DNA of 64,000 bases from Eledone cirrhosa (Eukaryota). Shown piece by piece: positions 18,573 to 57,775 of this stretch. Numbering within the stretch: position 1 is the stretch's first letter; every line of letters starts with the position of its first letter. A model generated the notes under the pieces. That model made no database searches. It had not been told where the DNA came from and was given only the letters and a program-made list of their open reading frames with translations. The translations under genes were made by a program, and so were the position numbers. The stretch covers positions 142,786,001-142,850,000 of the forward strand of contig OZ024741.1 in the NCBI GenBank assembly GCA_964016885.1, in the 5' to 3' direction.

Positions 18573-18630
18573 TATATAGAGATATATATATAGAGAGATA
18601 TTAGAGATAGAGAGAGAGAGAGAGGGGGTA
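15701..18630. repeat. (TA)n/GATATATATA array grading into (GA)n
   Basis: Direct inspection. Confidence 0.95.
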
Positions 18631-28743: not shown

Positions 28744-28791
28744 TCAGTCACTGATGAAATCCTAATACTATATTGAAACTAGCCTGGCTGA
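28744..28791 (+). ncRNA. Degenerate minimal hammerhead ribozyme (family H3)
   Basis: Helix I tcagtca/tggctga, CTGATGA 28751-28757, GAAA 28775-28778, palindromic CTAG; U16.1 replaced by C. Confidence 0.55.
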
Positions 28792-34885: not shown

Positions 34886-34956
<71 letters not shown>

Positions 34957-34982
34957 CAAAAGATGGTTAAAAGAGTTCCATG

Positions 34983-35053
34983 TATTTTATTATGCGCATT
35001 TCAAAAACAAATATCATCATGCAATAACATTTGTGTTTTCATCAGATAAAATA
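34983..35053 (-). ncRNA. Type I hammerhead ribozyme (family H1) in a terminal repeat copy (34953-35160)
   Basis: Reverse complement reads tattttat-CTGATGA-helix II-GAAA-tgcgca-TA-ataaaata. Confidence 0.8.
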
Positions 35054-35821
35054 GGAAGACATGATATGAAGGTTAAAAAACACTTGTGAATAGTGCAGTT
35101 TTAAATCAACATATGAAAAGTAGTTTTAGATTGATGTGTGATATTGGGAAAACATTTTTGAGGGGGGGCGGGAGGTTGGAAAGGATGAAAAAGAGGAGGA
35201 GATAAATAAAACTCACCTCCTACATATATATATATTAATTTTATTGATTTTTTAGTTAATCTTATTGACTGATGAATAGCTCTTGTTAATTTTAACACGT
35301 CTGTTGAGAACTCTAATTCGATATGTGATATCTTGTATTTTTACAAAAATATACACTTTACTGAATTCATTCGCCTAATATGGGGTTCCCTCCCTTGCTG
35401 GACTCCATGTGCGTTTAGTAACGGGTTGGGTGTCTCTATATTTCTGAACGAAATGCCTGTTGAGAAAGCAGCTTCCTCGTTCATCTCTTTACCAGAAGTC
35501 AGATATAATTTTTATGTGGGCCGACGGTAATTGATTAAGGAACTGCAGAAACCCATAAAGCTAGATTTTAACATCTTTCTAGCGGGTCCGGTTAAGATTT
35601 TACATTCATTTAATTTATTAATTTATTATTTGTGTGACCCGAATTTTCCTGGTCGTTTTTTCAGCTGTGCGAATGATTTTAAGCATTGTCTCTATGTGTT
35701 GGTATTTAAACGATAGTTATAGCTCTGGTTTACCCAAACTATTGAGCCCTCTGCCACACATTTCGAAGATTGTGTTTCGTGATTTCGTGGGCCGAGATTC
35801 CGATTCTCGATTATTTATTTG

Positions 35822-38117: not shown

Positions 38118-38962
38118 CTGTTAGAATTAACATTAAATTAAATACAAGATTTTTTTAAAAACCAATACGGGTGTGCATGTGTGATGGTCATGGCTGGAAC
38201 GCCGATCAGACGTCTGCTCAAACAGAGCTGTCCTGGGGTTAAACAACAATACACACTAAATTTGTCCATATGCTTAGCTTTAAGTCAACCTTGATTTGGG
38301 TAGCTGCAAGGCGTTCCAGTCATGACCATCCAGTCCATATTTTTCTCAGTTTATCTGAAGCTACGTTGTTAAATGTGATCTTTTATTTATAATATAGGAA
38401 GGTGTTATATAGTAGCAAATTTGTGTTTTAATAAATTTATAGATTACCCCACTCAATTTCAGTGGGAAAGAATGTTTTTCTCGTTTATTTTTCGTGTGCT
38501 ATCAACTAATCTAACATTAAAGTTGATGGCAATCGACTTTTTTCCTCGGACATCGGAGAGGGTGTAGTGCCCCCTCCTCTCCTCGGAGTTTTCTCTACAA
38601 TTTTTCCCCCACGTGTTATCAACGACTAGGACCTCCAAACCACTTGGAAACGACTAGATTTGTAGAAAGTAGAGCGAAATGGGGCGAAAAGACCACTGGT
38701 GTTTTGCAGATCTACACACATCTCGCATTTGGCGGGAAATAATTATCTTTCCTTGTTTTTTTCTGAACCTCTTAGATGCTTGCAATCGACTGTTTTCCCG
38801 GAAAACGGAAACCTTAACACCTCCCCCCTGGTGAGGGAGGTTGCAAAGCATCTAAGAAGTAAAAAAATATATATATATATTTTGCACCAAGCGCGCGTGT
38901 ATAAATAAATAAATATATATATATATAATATAAAATCAAAAGATGGTTAAAAGAGTTCCATG

Positions 38963-39033
38963 TATTTTATTATGCGCATTTCAAAAACAAATATCATCAT
39001 GGCATGATATTTGCGTTCTCATCAGATAAAATA
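38963..39033 (-). ncRNA. Type I hammerhead ribozyme (family H1), left arm
   Basis: tcatcag 39019-39025; exact reverse complement of 39134-39204. Confidence 0.85.
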
Positions 39034-39133
39034 GGGAGACACGATATGAAGCTTAAAAAACACTTGCGAGCAGTGAAGTGTCAAATCAACACTTCACTGC
39101 TCGCAAGTGTTTAAGCTTCATATCGTGTCTCCC

Positions 39134-39204
39134 TATTTTATCTGATGAGAACGCAAATATCATGCCATGATGATATTTGTTTTTGAAATGCGCATAATAA
39201 AATA
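39134..39204 (+). ncRNA. Type I hammerhead ribozyme (family H1), right arm
   Basis: tattttat-CTGATGA(39142-39148)-helix II caaatatcat/atgatatttg-GAAA(39185-39188)-tgcgca-TA-ataaaata. Confidence 0.85.
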
Positions 39205-39944
39205 CATGGAACTCTTTTAACCATCTTTTGATTTTATATTATTTATACTCCAGTCCTATAAACTGTTGAGTGCTACTTATCCGATATTTGCATTGCTTTA
39301 TTGTGCTACAATAAAACTCACTTCCTACATATATATATATATAATATATATACACACATACATGACGTATTATGATTGATTACTGTTGTGAATAGTTGCC
39401 TGGTTTACAGACTTAGAAGATGATAAGGCTTCAAGAATGTTCCATTTTCTTGAGAGACAGCAGATTAGGTAGGTTTTTTTTTTTTTGTGGGGGGGGGGGT
39501 TAGAATTAAATGACATTAAATGAAATAGTGAGATAAGTGGTGGGATTACAGACGCACACACCGCCATGACACAAAAAAGTGAGATATATTAGATACGGGA
39601 GAATCGGAAAGAGAGATTACAAATGTGACATTTTTGGAATGTCAAAAGTGTGTATGTAACGGATTTTGATGACGAAATCCAGTGATTATTAAATTTAGTG
39701 TTAAATGTTAGTGTCTTACGAAAGTAATCAGAAAATGTAAAAGAGAAGGAAATTGCTCTACATACAACTTAACACTAGATAAAATAACATATATAAAATC
39801 AAAACGAAAGAAAATATTAATTCAACACTGTCGAAACAAAAATGAAAGAGCATACAAGGAAACCGTTTAGTTAGTGATGGAGGCTTAACATGATAAACGA
39901 AAGAAAGTGAAGTTTCACTTGTACGTATACATCATTAAAAACCA

Positions 39945-41569: not shown

Positions 41570-49890
<8,321 letters not shown>

Positions 49891-50754
49891 ATAGTAAATT
49901 TATAAAACACCCCCATTCGATTTCAGAGGGGAAAAAAAAAAAATTTCCCTCGTTTTTTCGTGTGCTATCGTGTTTTATAAGTGTGTATATATATACATAC
50001 ATACACACACAAACAAGTACACACACATATTTCACCTATTCTCGGGTCCCAAATAATAGAGGGGATCGGTATTTTTCTAGGTTATCTCCGTTGATATTTT
50101 TTAAAACCAGAATTAGTCGTTTAGTTTACATATTGAGACCCCCAACCCATCCTATTTTATAACGTAAGATTTCTAGTAATGTACTTTTTTGATCATGTAT
50201 AAGGTTTTTTTTTCATGTACACGAATACCACGAGGAAAGTCAGAGATAAAAGGCACACTTTACTTTATAGAGAACTGTTTACGGAATATGTTTACAACAA
50301 AGCAGCACGATCCCCATTACCCACCTGCTATAACGAGAAGACTTCGTGAAGGTTTGCGGGGTCGGAGAAACATAACATGTAATAAATAGTGATTTCAAAA
50401 AATAAGGGAATCAAAGATTTCATATATAAGGAGATTCGTCTAGAATTTCCCCATTAAGGAGAAAGTAAGTGCCATAATTTAACAAACTATATTTAAACAA
50501 AATACAATATATACCAGTTTTATAAATAAACATTGACGTACCCTTTCAAAATGCGACCGTTACTTTTGGAAGACATCAGGATATCCTGATGTCTTCTTGT
50601 ATTTTGTCTGATGAAGGCATACCATAATTTAACTTGGTATCCTTTAAATATGTATAATGAAATAAATATGGTTTTATAAATATAGTTTCCATTTGTTAAT
50701 ATCGAATATCTACTCCAAATACTTGTTGTATCCCAACAATTTAATTAGAACTTT

Positions 50755-50792
<38 letters not shown>

Positions 50793-50799
<7 letters not shown>

Positions 50800-50890
50800 A
50801 GATCAAAAGATGGTTAAAGGAGTTCCATGTATTTATTTATGCGCATTTCAAAAACAAACATCATCATGCAATAATATTTGTGTTTTCATC

Positions 50891-50894
<4 letters not shown>
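50793..50894 (-). mobile_element. Truncated H1 ribozyme repeat in (TA)n; helix I lost
   Basis: tcatcag 50886-50892 and tgcgca-tttc retained; nearly identical to 3745-3845; (TA)n both sides. Confidence 0.75.
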
Positions 50895-50925
<31 letters not shown>

Positions 50926-51589: not shown

Positions 51590-51810
51590 CTGTCACCACC
51601 ACCACCACTATCGCTTCACTGTCGCCGCCATCACCACCAATACTATCACTTCACTGTCGCCGCCATCACCAACACTATCACTTCACTGTCGTCATCACCA
51701 CCACCAACACTATCACTTCACTGTCGCTGCCATCACCACTATAACTGCCACTGCCACCATCATCACCACTATAACTGCCACCACCACTTTCGCTGGCATC
51801 ACTATTAACA
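51590..51810. repeat. CAC/CAT-rich minisatellite (cactatcacttcactgtcgcc units)
   Basis: Direct inspection. Confidence 0.8.
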
Positions 51811-56442: not shown

Positions 56443-56504
56443 CTACTACTACTACTACTACTACTACTACTGCTTCTGCTTCTACTACTGCTGCTGCTGC
56501 TATA

Positions 56505-56555
<51 letters not shown>

Positions 56556-56606
56556 ACTACTACTACTACTACTACTGCTTCTGCTTCTACTTCTGCTGCT
56601 GCTATA

Positions 56607-56637
<31 letters not shown>

Positions 56638-56700
56638 TTGCTGCTGCTGCTGCTGCTGCTGCTGCTACTACTACTACTACTACTACTAACTAACTAACTA
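56443..56700. repeat. (ACT)n/(GCT)n compound trinucleotide repeat
   Basis: Direct inspection. Confidence 0.9.
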
Positions 56701-56956: not shown

Positions 56957-57775
56957 GTGTGGGAGTAGTGGTGGGTGTAGCTGTTAGAATGGTGGTGGCG
57001 GTGGTGGTGCTGGTGCTGGTGGTGGTGGCAGTAGCAAATGTGGTGGTGGTGGCAGTAACAGATGTAGTGATAGTGGCAGTAACAGATGTAGTGGTAGTGG
57101 TAGTGATAGTGGTAGTAGTAGATGTAGTGGTGGTGGCAGTAACAGATGTAGTGGTAGTGGCAGTAACAGATGTAGTGGTAGTGGTAGTAGTAGATGTAGT
57201 GATGGTAGCAATAGCAGATGTAGTGATAGTGGTGGTGGCAGTAACAGATGTAGTGATAGTGGTAGTAGTAGATGTAGTGGTGGTGGCAGTAACAGATGTA
57301 GTGGTAGTGGTAGTAGTAGATGTAGTGGTGGTGGCACTAACAGATGTAGTGGTAGTGGTAGTAGTAAATGTAGTGATGGTGGCAGTAATAGATGTAGTGG
57401 TGGTGGCAGTAACAGATGTAGTGGTGGTGGCAGTAGCAGATGTAGTGATGGTGGCAGTAGCAGATGTAGTAGGGGTGGTAGATGTAGTGATAATAGTAGA
57501 TGTAGTGGTGGTGGCAGTAACAGATGTAGTGGTGGTGGCAGTAGCAGATGTAGTAGGGGTGGTAGATGTAGTGATAATAGTAGATGTAGTGGTGGTGGCA
57601 GTAACAGATGTAGTGGTGGTGGCAGTAGCAGATACAGTAGTGGTGGTGGCAGTAACAGTTGTAGTGGCGGTTATAGTAGTAGGTGTAATGGTGGTGGGAG
57701 TAGTAGCTGTAGTGGTGGTGGGAGTAGTAAATGTAGTGGTGGCAGTCGTGGCAGTAGCAGGTGCAGTGATGGTTG
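56957..57775. repeat. GTG/GTA-rich minisatellite (gatgtagtggtggtggcagtaaca units)
   Basis: Direct inspection. Confidence 0.9.

What the first reader, a model, noticed from the sequence alone, without database searches (positions are those of the whole stretch)
38925..39242. Double-hammerhead palindrome: two intact ribozymes head-to-head
Seen: ~155-bp arms identical except for a 3-nt indel, each with a complete HHR, so either strand's transcript has one sense ribozyme and its full antisense copy. H1 copies differ in helix II while keeping it paired and keeping the cores invariant. Inference: recent fold-back during reverse transcription; a read-through RNA would form a long hairpin that blocks its own ribozyme or feeds small-RNA pathways.
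Basis: partly seen in the sequence, partly recalled or inferred. Interest (0 to 1): 0.75.

Follow-up and report, generated by a model that had tools for sequence, protein, structure and literature searches.

The report
Head-to-head Penelope retroelement insertion scar
This 320-base DNA palindrome is two mirror-image copies of the hammerhead-motif-bearing end of a very abundant Penelope-like jumping gene, a layout that this family likely produces routinely while inserting, so it is ordinary for this genome and not a special double ribozyme.

Summary
The palindrome is real in the assembly. The arms are 38925-39081 and 39089-39247, with a 7-nt centre, and differ only by a 3-nt T-run indel. Each arm carries every conserved hammerhead core base and three helices in type-I order.

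It is not a one-off. The arm is the last ~170 nt (pseudo-LTR end) of an ORF-bearing Penelope-like element (PLE). Its hammerhead segment occurs at about 26,350 places in this 3.0-Gb animal genome. In 57 other loci, 23 have the same head-to-head partner. Among the first 100 listed hammerhead sites, 52 sit in (-,+) pairs and none in (+,-) pairs. 749 places share a CATATG-centred junction and 5 share this window's centre.

In 22 of 23 classifiable pairs, one arm carries an 82-nt 3' "tail" and the other does not. The tailed arm is the more truncated one in 21 of 22. This matches the published PLE insertion architecture: an inverted 5'-truncated copy, a tail at one end, and a microsatellite target.

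It argues against a simple cis fold-back. It favours two opposed cDNAs joined by microhomology (TGT/ACA here).

Ribozyme activity is unproven. No Rfam hammerhead model matches, no covariation was found, pair 10.1-11.1 is G·U or A-U, and helix III has only 2 bp, as in the dimer type. Reads spanning the centre could not be obtained.

The parts
38925..39088 (-). Left arm: 5'-near-complete, tail-less copy of the PLE pseudo-LTR end (reference positions 5-176). It includes the 7-nt centre 39082-39088, which is the antisense of TGATTTG.
   Evidence: blastn against a natural reference copy from L004; arm alignment; orientation of the centre read.
39089..39247 (+). Right arm: copy of the same element end, reference positions 15-176. 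It carries the locus-specific T6->T3 deletion at about 39110.
39248..39329 (+). 82-nt 3' 'tail' (reference positions 177-258), present only on the right arm and followed by (TA)n.
   Evidence: The blastn match 39088-39329 covers reference 14-258 at 96.7%. The same extension follows about half of the single copies.
39128..39212 (+). Hammerhead-like motif of the right arm. Helix I is 39134-39141/39197-39204, the core CTGATGA is 39142-39148, helix II is 39149-39184, GAAA is 39185-39188, and helix III is TGCGCA at 39189-39194. The predicted cut lies after A39196.
38955..39039 (-). Hammerhead-like motif of the left arm, identical in sequence to the right one. The predicted cut on the minus strand lies between 38971 and 38970.
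38903..38924 (.). TA-rich left flank, likely the remnant of a microsatellite target.
   Evidence: (D2)
39330..39352 (.). (TA)n right flank. A target-site duplication cannot be told apart from the microsatellite.
3675..3848 (+). Another copy of the same element end (second subfamily, reference 1-171).
34939..35115 (-). Another copy (reference 1-176).
50787..50895 (-). A 5'-truncated copy (reference 68-176) at the edge of an 8-kb (TA)n array.

Best explanation
The palindrome is a head-to-head pair of short copies of the 3' end (pseudo-LTR) of a Penelope-like retroelement, and it was likely created in a single insertion event when both cut strands of a (TA)n target primed reverse transcription.

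Shown:
- The arms are copies of the last ~170 nt of an element that continues upstream into an RT-bearing ORF.
- Such head-to-head pairs are very common in this genome.
- The pairs follow a strict rule. One arm ends at the inner 3' end (position 176) and is 5'-complete. The other ends at the outer 3' end (position 258, with the 82-nt tail) and is the truncated one.

Inferred:
- One strand primes at the inner start site and copies a short pseudo-LTR RNA to its 5' end, which lies at about position 1-5.
- The opposite strand primes at the RNA's 3' end and copies it for a variable distance.
- This second cDNA then jumps onto the 3' terminus of the first cDNA. The jump is aided by microhomology: TGT/ACA at positions 5-7/15-17 in this locus, and the self-complementary CATATG at position 1 in the commonest class.
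- In this locus the second cDNA had almost reached the 5' end, so the two arms are nearly equal.

The hammerhead motifs are passengers of the element end. With a 2-bp helix III they are predicted to need a second sense copy to cut. A read-through transcript of the palindrome would instead lock each motif in a roughly 160-bp duplex.
For: Abundance of the family:
- The arm is a dispersed repeat.
- Its hammerhead 3' half occurs at 13,186 + 13,164 places with up to 2 mismatches, and 0 in the reversed-pattern control.

Link to a PLE:
- Full copies continue upstream into an ORF.
- The C-terminal RT part of that ORF aligns with a Pfam-validated RT+GIY-YIG ORF of the same genome: BLASTP E 2e-6 and hhalign 90.8%, E 1.2e-6 over 216 columns. 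The reference ORFs were validated.
- Atlas neighbours carry HTH_animal, DUF8422, GIY-YIG and RVT_1 (a lead only).
- L126 shows pLTR-ORF-pLTR. L128 shows an inverted 5'-truncated copy next to an ORF copy.

Frequency of head-to-head pairs:
- In 57 loci there are 25 head-to-head pairs in 23 loci, against 1 tail-to-tail and 1 same-strand adjacency.
- Among the first 100 listed sites there are 14 (-,+) pairs within 400 nt, 12 at 0.4-6 kb, 0 (+,-) pairs and 4 same-strand pairs.

The tail rule:
- 22 of 23 classifiable pairs have the tail on one arm only. From 21 tailed and 19 untailed single copies, 50% would be expected (binomial p 2.7e-6).
- The tailed arm is the more truncated arm, or equally truncated, in 21 of 22.

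Junctions and arm relatedness:
- Junctions sit at microhomologies.
- The two arms of a locus share private variants, so both come from one source.

Literature, passages read:
- PLEs often have an inverted 5'-truncated copy at the 5' end, a tail at one end, and a microsatellite insertion bias (PMC8557442).
- A purified PLE protein cleaves and extends both target strands, and the tail is the stretch between two RT start sites (PMC11167929).
- PLE pLTRs carry minimal type-I hammerheads with a palindromic helix III, thought to act as dimers (PMC4209133).

Dimer prediction: the cofold of two motifs is -46.1 kcal/mol against 2 x -17.6, with an 8-bp intermolecular helix III.
Against: - No read or contig spanning the centre was obtained. 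Logan contigs of the same species cover the unique flanks and the repeat only in 40-80-nt pieces.
- The order of events and the template jump are inferred from junction anatomy only.
[quoted passage not shown] The strict tail asymmetry seen here is therefore not explained by published data.
- The endonuclease of this family is only weakly recognisable: Pfam finds nothing, BLASTP gives E 0.016, and hhalign gives probability 11%.
- Five loci share exactly this centre, and three of them share the whole architecture. That could instead mean a palindromic copy was itself re-copied.
- The 57 loci were the best-scoring matches to near-full arms, so one arm of each pair was selected to be long.
Confidence: 0.75

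Rival explanations
1. Cis snap-back. A single first-strand cDNA reached the RNA 5' end, folded back on its own TGT...ACA inverted repeat and copied itself, giving a perfect hairpin.
For: The arms are almost identical. The element has a built-in 3-4-bp inverted repeat with a 5-7-nt loop exactly at the centre. The same centre recurs at 5 loci.
Against: The centre is contiguous with the tail-less arm, yet the supposed copy-back arm carries 82 nt of tail that is absent from its template. In 11 or more other pairs, the arms cover non-overlapping or unequal parts of the element, for example 110-258 joined to 10-176. No self-copy can produce that.
Confidence: 0.1
2. Re-copying of a palindromic source. 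A pre-existing head-to-head unit was transcribed through and retrotransposed as a whole, so this locus is a daughter copy and not a fresh junction.
For: Four further loci have the same centre with 0-2 mismatches. L090 and L091 have the same architecture (5-176 | 14-258) in different flanks. L093 looks like a 5'-truncated version.
Against: Both arms of the window share two variants (CGTG, and loop GCCATG) that differ from those shared by both arms of the other four loci. The junction lies at a microhomology that could be reused independently. A 160-bp RNA hairpin would be a poor template.
Confidence: 0.1
3. Assembly or read artefact (chimeric fold-back).
For: No bridging read was seen. PLE tandem/inverted structures are said to trouble assemblies (PMC8557442).
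Against: The flanks are unique and differ on the two sides. The arms differ by an indel and by the one-sided tail. The same architecture occurs at hundreds of places on many chromosomes, with the same asymmetry. Contigs of runs X3 and X4 cover the bin holding the locus-specific deletion variant.
Confidence: 0.03
4. Post-insertional DNA-level inverted duplication, for example replication template switching at a (TA)n tract, or a fold-back/MITE-type DNA transposon.
For: Giant (TA)n arrays lie nearby. The locus has a long terminal inverted structure.
Against: The systematic use of two defined 3' ends and of the element's 5' end as junction points indicates RNA-templated synthesis. The outer ends are unequal, so there are no true terminal inverted repeats.
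Confidence: 0.03
5. A selected hairpin-RNA or miRNA-like gene, or a regulated 'self-blocking' double ribozyme.
For: There are sub-threshold Rfam hairpin matches (best MIR1523, 43.9 bits against gathering 96) and a very stable hairpin.
Against: All matches are below gathering and hit unrelated miRNA families, as any long hairpin would. Hundreds of similar junctions have variable arms. There is no expression evidence.
Confidence: 0.02

Closest known systems
Insertion architecture of endonuclease-positive Penelope-like elements (Craig et al. 2021, PMC8557442, passages read; Arkhipova et al. 2013, PMC3846280, seen only in the search listing)
   Same: Heavy 5' truncation; partial tandems that form pseudo-LTRs; an inverted 5'-truncated copy directly at the 5' end; an extra 'tail' at only one end; insertion into microsatellites; a hammerhead motif in the pseudo-LTR.
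   Different: The tail is 82 nt here, against the 30-40 bp described. Most copies are stumps of 170-260 nt that start at one fixed position. In this locus the inverted copy is almost as long as the main one, so the unit looks like a clean palindrome.
Minimal/dimeric type-I hammerheads of metazoan PLEs and satellites (Cervera and de la Pena 2014, PMC4209133, passages read)
   Same: All core letters; type-I topology; a 2-bp helix III with a palindromic loop (AUGCGCAU), predicted to pair between two copies; location in PLE flanking repeats.
   Different: Helix II is 15 pairs (4-6 described). Pair 10.1-11.1 is G.U or A-U, not the 'highly conserved' G-C. There is no extra base between 9 and 10.1. 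No Rfam hammerhead model scores it.
PAc Penelope-like element in vitro (PMC11167929, passages read)
   Same: The protein cleaves and extends both target strands at AT-rich sites. Two RT start sites bound the 'tail'. Hammerhead cleavage is not needed for insertion, and no copy here starts at the predicted cut site.
   Different: In vitro, the start site did not differ between strands. Here the two arms of a pair use different 3' ends in 22 of 23 cases.
Metazoan non-LTR retrozymes (PMC7229834, listing and abstract start only; Li et al. 2026 preprint 10.64898/2026.07.22.740005, abstract and outline)
   Same: Type-I hammerheads in animal repeats, thought to depend on or derive from PLE pseudo-LTRs.
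   Different: Retrozymes are tandem head-to-tail, non-coding units. This family is the end of an ORF-bearing element, and its copies are single or head-to-head (1 same-strand adjacency in 57 loci).
LINE-1 twin priming (recalled from memory, not looked up)
   Same: Both strands of the target prime cDNA, and the two are joined by microhomology.
   Different: Twin priming gives an inversion of different parts of one RNA. Here both arms contain the same 3' region, so each arm was primed at a 3' start site.

Membership tests
Hammerhead ribozyme, type I | Conserved core C3 U4 G5 A6 N7 G8 A9 / G12 A13 A14 / A15.1-U16.1 / H17 | tested here: met
   CUGAUGA ... GAAA ... U A| are read directly in both arms. 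They are the same in both subfamily majority sequences.
Hammerhead ribozyme, type I | Three helices around the core, with helix I open | tested here: met
   The centroid fold of one arm gives helix I (8 bp plus an extension), helix II (15 pairs) and an open core. 95.9% of cells are paired in 60 distinct copies, against 58.5% or less in the slid controls. The structure was derived from these same sequences.
Hammerhead ribozyme, type I | G10.1-C11.1 closing pair of helix II | tested here: not met
   Columns 22/62: G.U in 34 and A-U in 25 of 60 distinct copies.
Hammerhead ribozyme, type I | Match to the Rfam hammerhead covariance models | tested here: not met
   No hammerhead family at the gathering score, nor at E<=10 in 1.6 kb or in 105 nt.
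Hammerhead ribozyme, type I | Covariation supporting the helices | tested here: inconclusive
   Only one-sided, wobble-compatible changes were seen. The covariation score is 0.122 against 0.120 shuffled, and 56 of 500 shuffles reach it.
Hammerhead ribozyme, type I | Self-cleavage | not testable with these tools
   Single minimal PLE motifs were reported inactive, and dimers weakly active, in vitro (PMC4209133).
Dimeric (newt/PLE-type) hammerhead | Helix III of 1-2 bp with a palindromic loop that can pair between two copies | tested here: met
   AUGCGCAU. The cofold of two motifs is -46.1 against -35.2 kcal/mol, with an 8-bp intermolecular helix III.
Endonuclease-positive Penelope-like element | PLE-type reverse transcriptase ORF | tested here: met
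   hhalign against the genome's Pfam-validated RT+GIY-YIG ORFs gives 90.8%, E 1.2e-6. BLASTP gives E 2e-6. Pfam itself finds nothing in this family's ORFs.
Endonuclease-positive Penelope-like element | C-terminal GIY-YIG endonuclease | tested here: inconclusive
   There is a co-linear IY...YFG...R...H stretch. BLASTP gives E 0.016 and hhalign gives E 0.0027 with probability 11%. Pfam gives no hit. Atlas neighbours carry GIY-YIG.
Endonuclease-positive Penelope-like element | Pseudo-LTRs, an inverted 5'-truncated copy, a tail at one end, and a microsatellite target | tested here: met
   L126 and L128; L124+L004; census of 57 loci; (TA)n flanks.
Metazoan non-LTR retrozyme | Head-to-tail tandem arrays of short non-coding hammerhead units | tested here: not met
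   There is 1 same-strand adjacency in 57 loci. Same-strand pairs are 1-4.4 kb apart, which is the pLTR-ORF-pLTR spacing.
miRNA precursor families (Rfam) | Score at or above the family's gathering threshold | tested here: not met
   The best match is MIR1523 at 43.9 bits against 96. All matches are below gathering.

The most novel reading that the evidence does not exclude
The thousands of head-to-head stumps in this genome record an ordered, two-strand integration reaction of Penelope-like elements. The strand that primes at the inner start site makes a complete cDNA. The strand that primes at the RNA's very 3' end (the tail) makes a partial cDNA. That partial cDNA then jumps end-to-end onto the 3' terminus of the first, at CATATG or TGT/ACA microhomology. 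If this holds, the one-sided tail and the inverted copy, both unexplained hallmarks of PLEs, come from one mechanism. That mechanism can be tested with this family's short RNA.
Probability: 0.4. Interest if true: 0.45.

Novelty: new member of a known kind. Interest (0 to 1): 0.25.

Why it matters
As a 'double ribozyme' the finding does not stand out. It is the normal insertion scar of a very abundant Penelope-like element.

Its value is as data on how these elements integrate, which is poorly understood. The family leaves short, easily read junctions in very large numbers, and they follow a strict rule: the tail sits on the truncated arm, and the complete arm is tail-less. Published in-vitro work does not yet explain this rule.

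The family also shows a hammerhead variant with a long AU-rich helix II and a non-G-C 10.1-11.1 pair, kept in about 26,000 copies and missed by Rfam models. Such palindromes are also a practical hazard for assembly and repeat annotation.

Tried and rejected
- Rfam scans gave no hammerhead at any threshold. The sub-threshold miRNA and snoRNA hits are generic hairpin or AU-rich matches and were set aside.
- Read support: the runs listed are Logan contigs. When laid they gave only 40-80-nt pieces in the repeat and no piece bridging the centre.
- No RNA holder was listed, so nothing can be said about expression.
- The summed contig depths were not used as a copy number.
- The neighbouring 400 kb held no further copy. 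All 5 copies in 464 kb lie in the window, next to its large (TA)n arrays.
- A first set of GIY-YIG-positive loci did not contain this family. The link to an ORF came only from extending full-length copies upstream.
- Pfam found nothing in this family's ORFs.
- A profile search of solved structures found nothing at E<=1.
- Covariation analysis gave no support beyond shuffles.
- Look-ups of earlier notes by place and by sequence returned nothing.
- No copy or inner arm end starts at the predicted hammerhead cut site (reference 125/126) in the 57 loci. There is therefore no sign that cleaved RNA is the template.
- A target-site duplication could not be called, because both flanks are (TA)n.
Full report
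**What is there**

Window 38920-39247 is a near-perfect inverted repeat. The arms are 38920-39057/39110-39247 (138 nt, 99%) and 39058-39081/39089-39112 (24 nt, 100%), around a 7-nt centre CAAATCA.

A global alignment of the two arms shows one 3-nt gap (T6 versus T3) and one mismatch at the outermost TA-rich base, just outside 38925.

As RNA the stretch folds into a single hairpin of -259.4 kcal/mol, against -58.1 +/- 4.6 for shuffles.

**The hammerhead-like motif**

Each arm contains CTGATGA-(38 nt)-GAAA. The window has 6 such matches against 0.48 expected, and 5 belong to one family: 3747+, 34999-, 38979-, 39142+ and 50846-.

Read directly from the sequence, the motif has these parts:
- Helix I is UAUUUUAU/AUAAAAUA, 8 bp, with a further interrupted stem.
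- The core is CUGAUGA.
- Helix II has 15 pairs with one CxU mismatch and a 6-nt loop.
- GAAA follows.
- Helix III is A-U and U-A closed by GCGC.
- U-A then precedes the predicted cut, which lies after 39196 on the + strand.

The centroid fold of one arm is this three-way junction.

**Limits on calling it a ribozyme**

- No Rfam hammerhead model matches at the gathering score.
- None matches at E<=10 in 1.6 kb or in 105 nt.
- On 60 distinct copies from 61 sequences, the named structure is 95.9% paired. Shuffles give 95.7%, and the covariation score is not exceptional (56 of 500 shuffles reach it).
- The two subfamilies differ at six stem positions, all by one-sided wobble-compatible transitions. 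That is weak support at best.
- Pair 10.1-11.1 is G.U (34 copies) or A-U (25 copies), not G-C.
- Individual genomic copies carry core mutations, as expected of decaying repeats.
- Helix III has only 2 bp. The octamer AUGCGCAU is self-complementary, and two motifs are predicted to cofold at -46.1 against 2 x -17.6 kcal/mol with an 8-bp intermolecular helix III.

This is the dimer-type architecture described for metazoan and PLE hammerheads. For those, single motifs were inactive and dimers weakly active in vitro (PMC4209133, passages).

**What the arm is**

The own genome is a 3.0-Gb, 1,796-contig animal assembly. The arm is a dispersed repeat. The 34-nt 3' half of the motif occurs at 13,186 + 13,164 places with up to 2 mismatches, and 0 in the reversed control.

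Aligning copies with their flanks gave a coordinate system on one natural copy, L004:
- Many copies begin at one fixed position, reference 1 (CATATGTTGATTTA...).
- They end either at position 176 (...TTATATTAT, then (TA)n) or at position 258, after an extra 82 nt, also followed by (TA)n.

The window's right flank 39248-39329 is this 82-nt extension. The unit is therefore -(5-176) | +(15-258), and not a symmetric object.

Longer copies continue upstream for about 2.3 kb or more, into an ORF:
- Its RT part aligns with a Pfam-validated RT+GIY-YIG ORF of the same genome. BLASTP gives E 2e-6. hhalign gives 90.8%, E 1.2e-6 over 216 columns that include the FDV/YxDD motifs. The reference ORFs were validated.
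- The C-terminal GIY-YIG-like stretch is co-linear but statistically weak. Pfam finds nothing in this family's ORFs.
- Language-model neighbours carry HTH_animal, DUF8422, GIY-YIG and RVT_1 (a lead only).
- L126 shows pseudo-LTR, ORF, pseudo-LTR. L128 shows an inverted 5'-truncated copy next to an ORF copy, with the motif in both. L127 has a 1,119-aa open frame followed by the second-subfamily motif.

PLEs are very abundant here. 150 of 150 scored GIY-YIG candidates pass Pfam's cut-off, out of 10,596 first-look candidates. The RT fragment of this family has 41,601 first-look candidates.

**How common the palindrome is**

I examined the 28 + 29 best loci other than the window, returned for the two subfamily arms. 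A script looked for adjacent hits.

It found 25 head-to-head pairs in 23 of 57 loci, 1 tail-to-tail pair and 1 same-strand adjacency. By eye, two more head-to-head loci (L106, L121) fell outside the script's spacing limits.

An independent, coordinate-ordered sample gives the same picture. The first 100 places listed (all exact matches, first 45 Mb of contig 1) contain:
- 14 (-,+) pairs within 400 nt;
- 12 (-,+) pairs at 0.4-6 kb;
- no (+,-) pair within 6 kb;
- 4 same-strand pairs.

So 52 of 100 sites are in head-to-head pairs.

The junction in which two complete copies share the self-complementary CATATG of position 1 occurs at 749 places with up to 2 mismatches, and 0 in the control. The window's own centre occurs at 5 places with up to 2 mismatches. 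L090 and L091 have the same overall architecture in unrelated flanks. L092 and L093 are shortened forms.

**The rule**

Of 23 classifiable pairs, 22 have the 82-nt tail on one arm only. Single copies are 21 tailed and 19 untailed, so 50% discordance would be expected (binomial p 2.7e-6).

In 21 of 22 pairs, the tailed arm is the more truncated one or is equally long. The tail-less arm reaches reference position about 0-10 or beyond.

Because the loci were found with near-full arms, one long arm per pair is expected. That this long arm is always the tail-less one is not expected.

Arm-to-arm identity in 15 long pairs is 95.3-100%. The window's pair is among the more similar, but it is not unique. 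The two arms of a locus share private variants, so both derive from one source.

**Mechanism**

A cis snap-back of one cDNA does not fit, for two reasons:
- In the window the non-palindromic centre is contiguous with the tail-less arm, yet the other arm holds 82 nt that the first lacks.
- In many loci the arms cover different parts of the element, for example 110-258 joined to 10-176.

The anatomy fits the following sequence, all of it inferred:
1. Two opposed cDNAs are primed from the two strands of one cut (TA)n target.
2. One starts at the inner site (176) and runs to the RNA 5' end.
3. The other starts at the RNA 3' end (258) and runs a variable distance.
4. The second then continues on the 3' terminus of the first. 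The switch is seeded by microhomology: CATATG, or TGT(5-7)/ACA(15-17) in this locus.

Published passages give precedent:
- PLE insertions 'often' have an inverted 5'-truncated copy at the 5' end, a tail at one end, and a microsatellite insertion bias (PMC8557442).
- A purified PLE protein cleaves and extends both strands, and the tail is the stretch between two RT start sites. No strand difference in start site was seen in vitro (PMC11167929).

No inner end falls at the predicted hammerhead cut site. This is consistent with the report that cleavage is not needed for insertion.

The fixed 5' end at position 1 is likely the pseudo-LTR transcription start. This is an inference.

**Open points**

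No read spanning the centre could be obtained. An artefact is nevertheless unlikely:
- The flanks are unique and differ on the two sides.
- The arms differ by the indel and by the one-sided tail.
- The same asymmetric architecture occurs at hundreds of places.

I could not fully separate two readings of the five same-centre loci: independent reuse of one microhomology, or copies of a palindromic source. The window's arms share two variants that the other four loci lack in both arms, which argues for at least two origins.

Expression, cleavage and small RNAs are untested. No RNA holder was listed.

Earlier AI notes of this scan describe similar head-to-head PLE stumps in this and other genomes. 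I treat them as agreement, not as evidence.

**Verdict**

The 'double intact ribozyme' reading is over-stated. The origin during reverse transcription is right in spirit, but it is the routine, already described PLE insertion architecture and not a singular fold-back.

It is a new family-level example of a known kind. Its modest extra value lies in the strict tail rule and the microhomology rule.

Noticed in passing
window 11429-18592, 41572-49893, 9111-10449, 1696-2786: Very long (TA)n arrays of up to 8.3 kb. All 5 copies of the element in a 464-kb stretch lie in this window, and none lies in the 400 kb around it. This fits a (TA)n insertion preference.
   Followed up: partly
L048 (G000:C1:438609500-438617500) 1850-3502(-) / 3213-4865(+), and 6206(-) / 6325(+): Two 551-aa RT+GIY-YIG ORF copies of another PLE family lie head-to-head and overlap by 290 nt. 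Nearby is a second hammerhead type (…GAAAUGAUCAUA…), also as a head-to-head pair 119 nt apart.
   Followed up: partly
window 4160-6789 and 10714-11436 (minus strand): Fragments of a non-LTR (LINE-type) retrotransposon ORF. They are up to 98.8% identical to a 581-aa ORF in L047 that carries RVT_1 and zf-RVT.
   Followed up: partly
window 28751-28778 (+): An isolated CTGATGA...GAAA match that is unrelated to the family. It is probably chance.
   Followed up: no
window 38521-38545 / 38774-38798 and 38760-38781 / 38846-38867: A short direct repeat and an inverted repeat lie just left of the palindrome, around a G/C-rich hairpin CCTCCCCCCTGGTGAGGGAGG. This may be another small repeat. It was not identified.
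   Followed up: no
window 57019-57742, 56443-56688, 51596-51739: A 24/48-nt minisatellite (GTGGTAGTGGCAGTAGCAGATGTA-like), a (CTA)82 array and a 35/67-nt repeat.
   Followed up: no
L006 1466-1492 / 1487-1734; L093 1474-1514 / 1512-1685: Copies whose inverted partner is only 27-40 nt of the element's 5' end and has no 3' end of its own. This minor junction class does not fit the tail rule.
   Followed up: no
L019 1877-1971 and 1419-1675; L007 1300-1668 and 1858-1944: Tail-only fragments (reference 164-258) lie on the same strand, about 200 nt from a full copy. They may be partial-tandem (pseudo-LTR-like) products.
   Followed up: no
G000 flanks of the window: The 464-kb stitched neighbourhood contains one run of 200 N, which is an assembly gap.
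   Followed up: no
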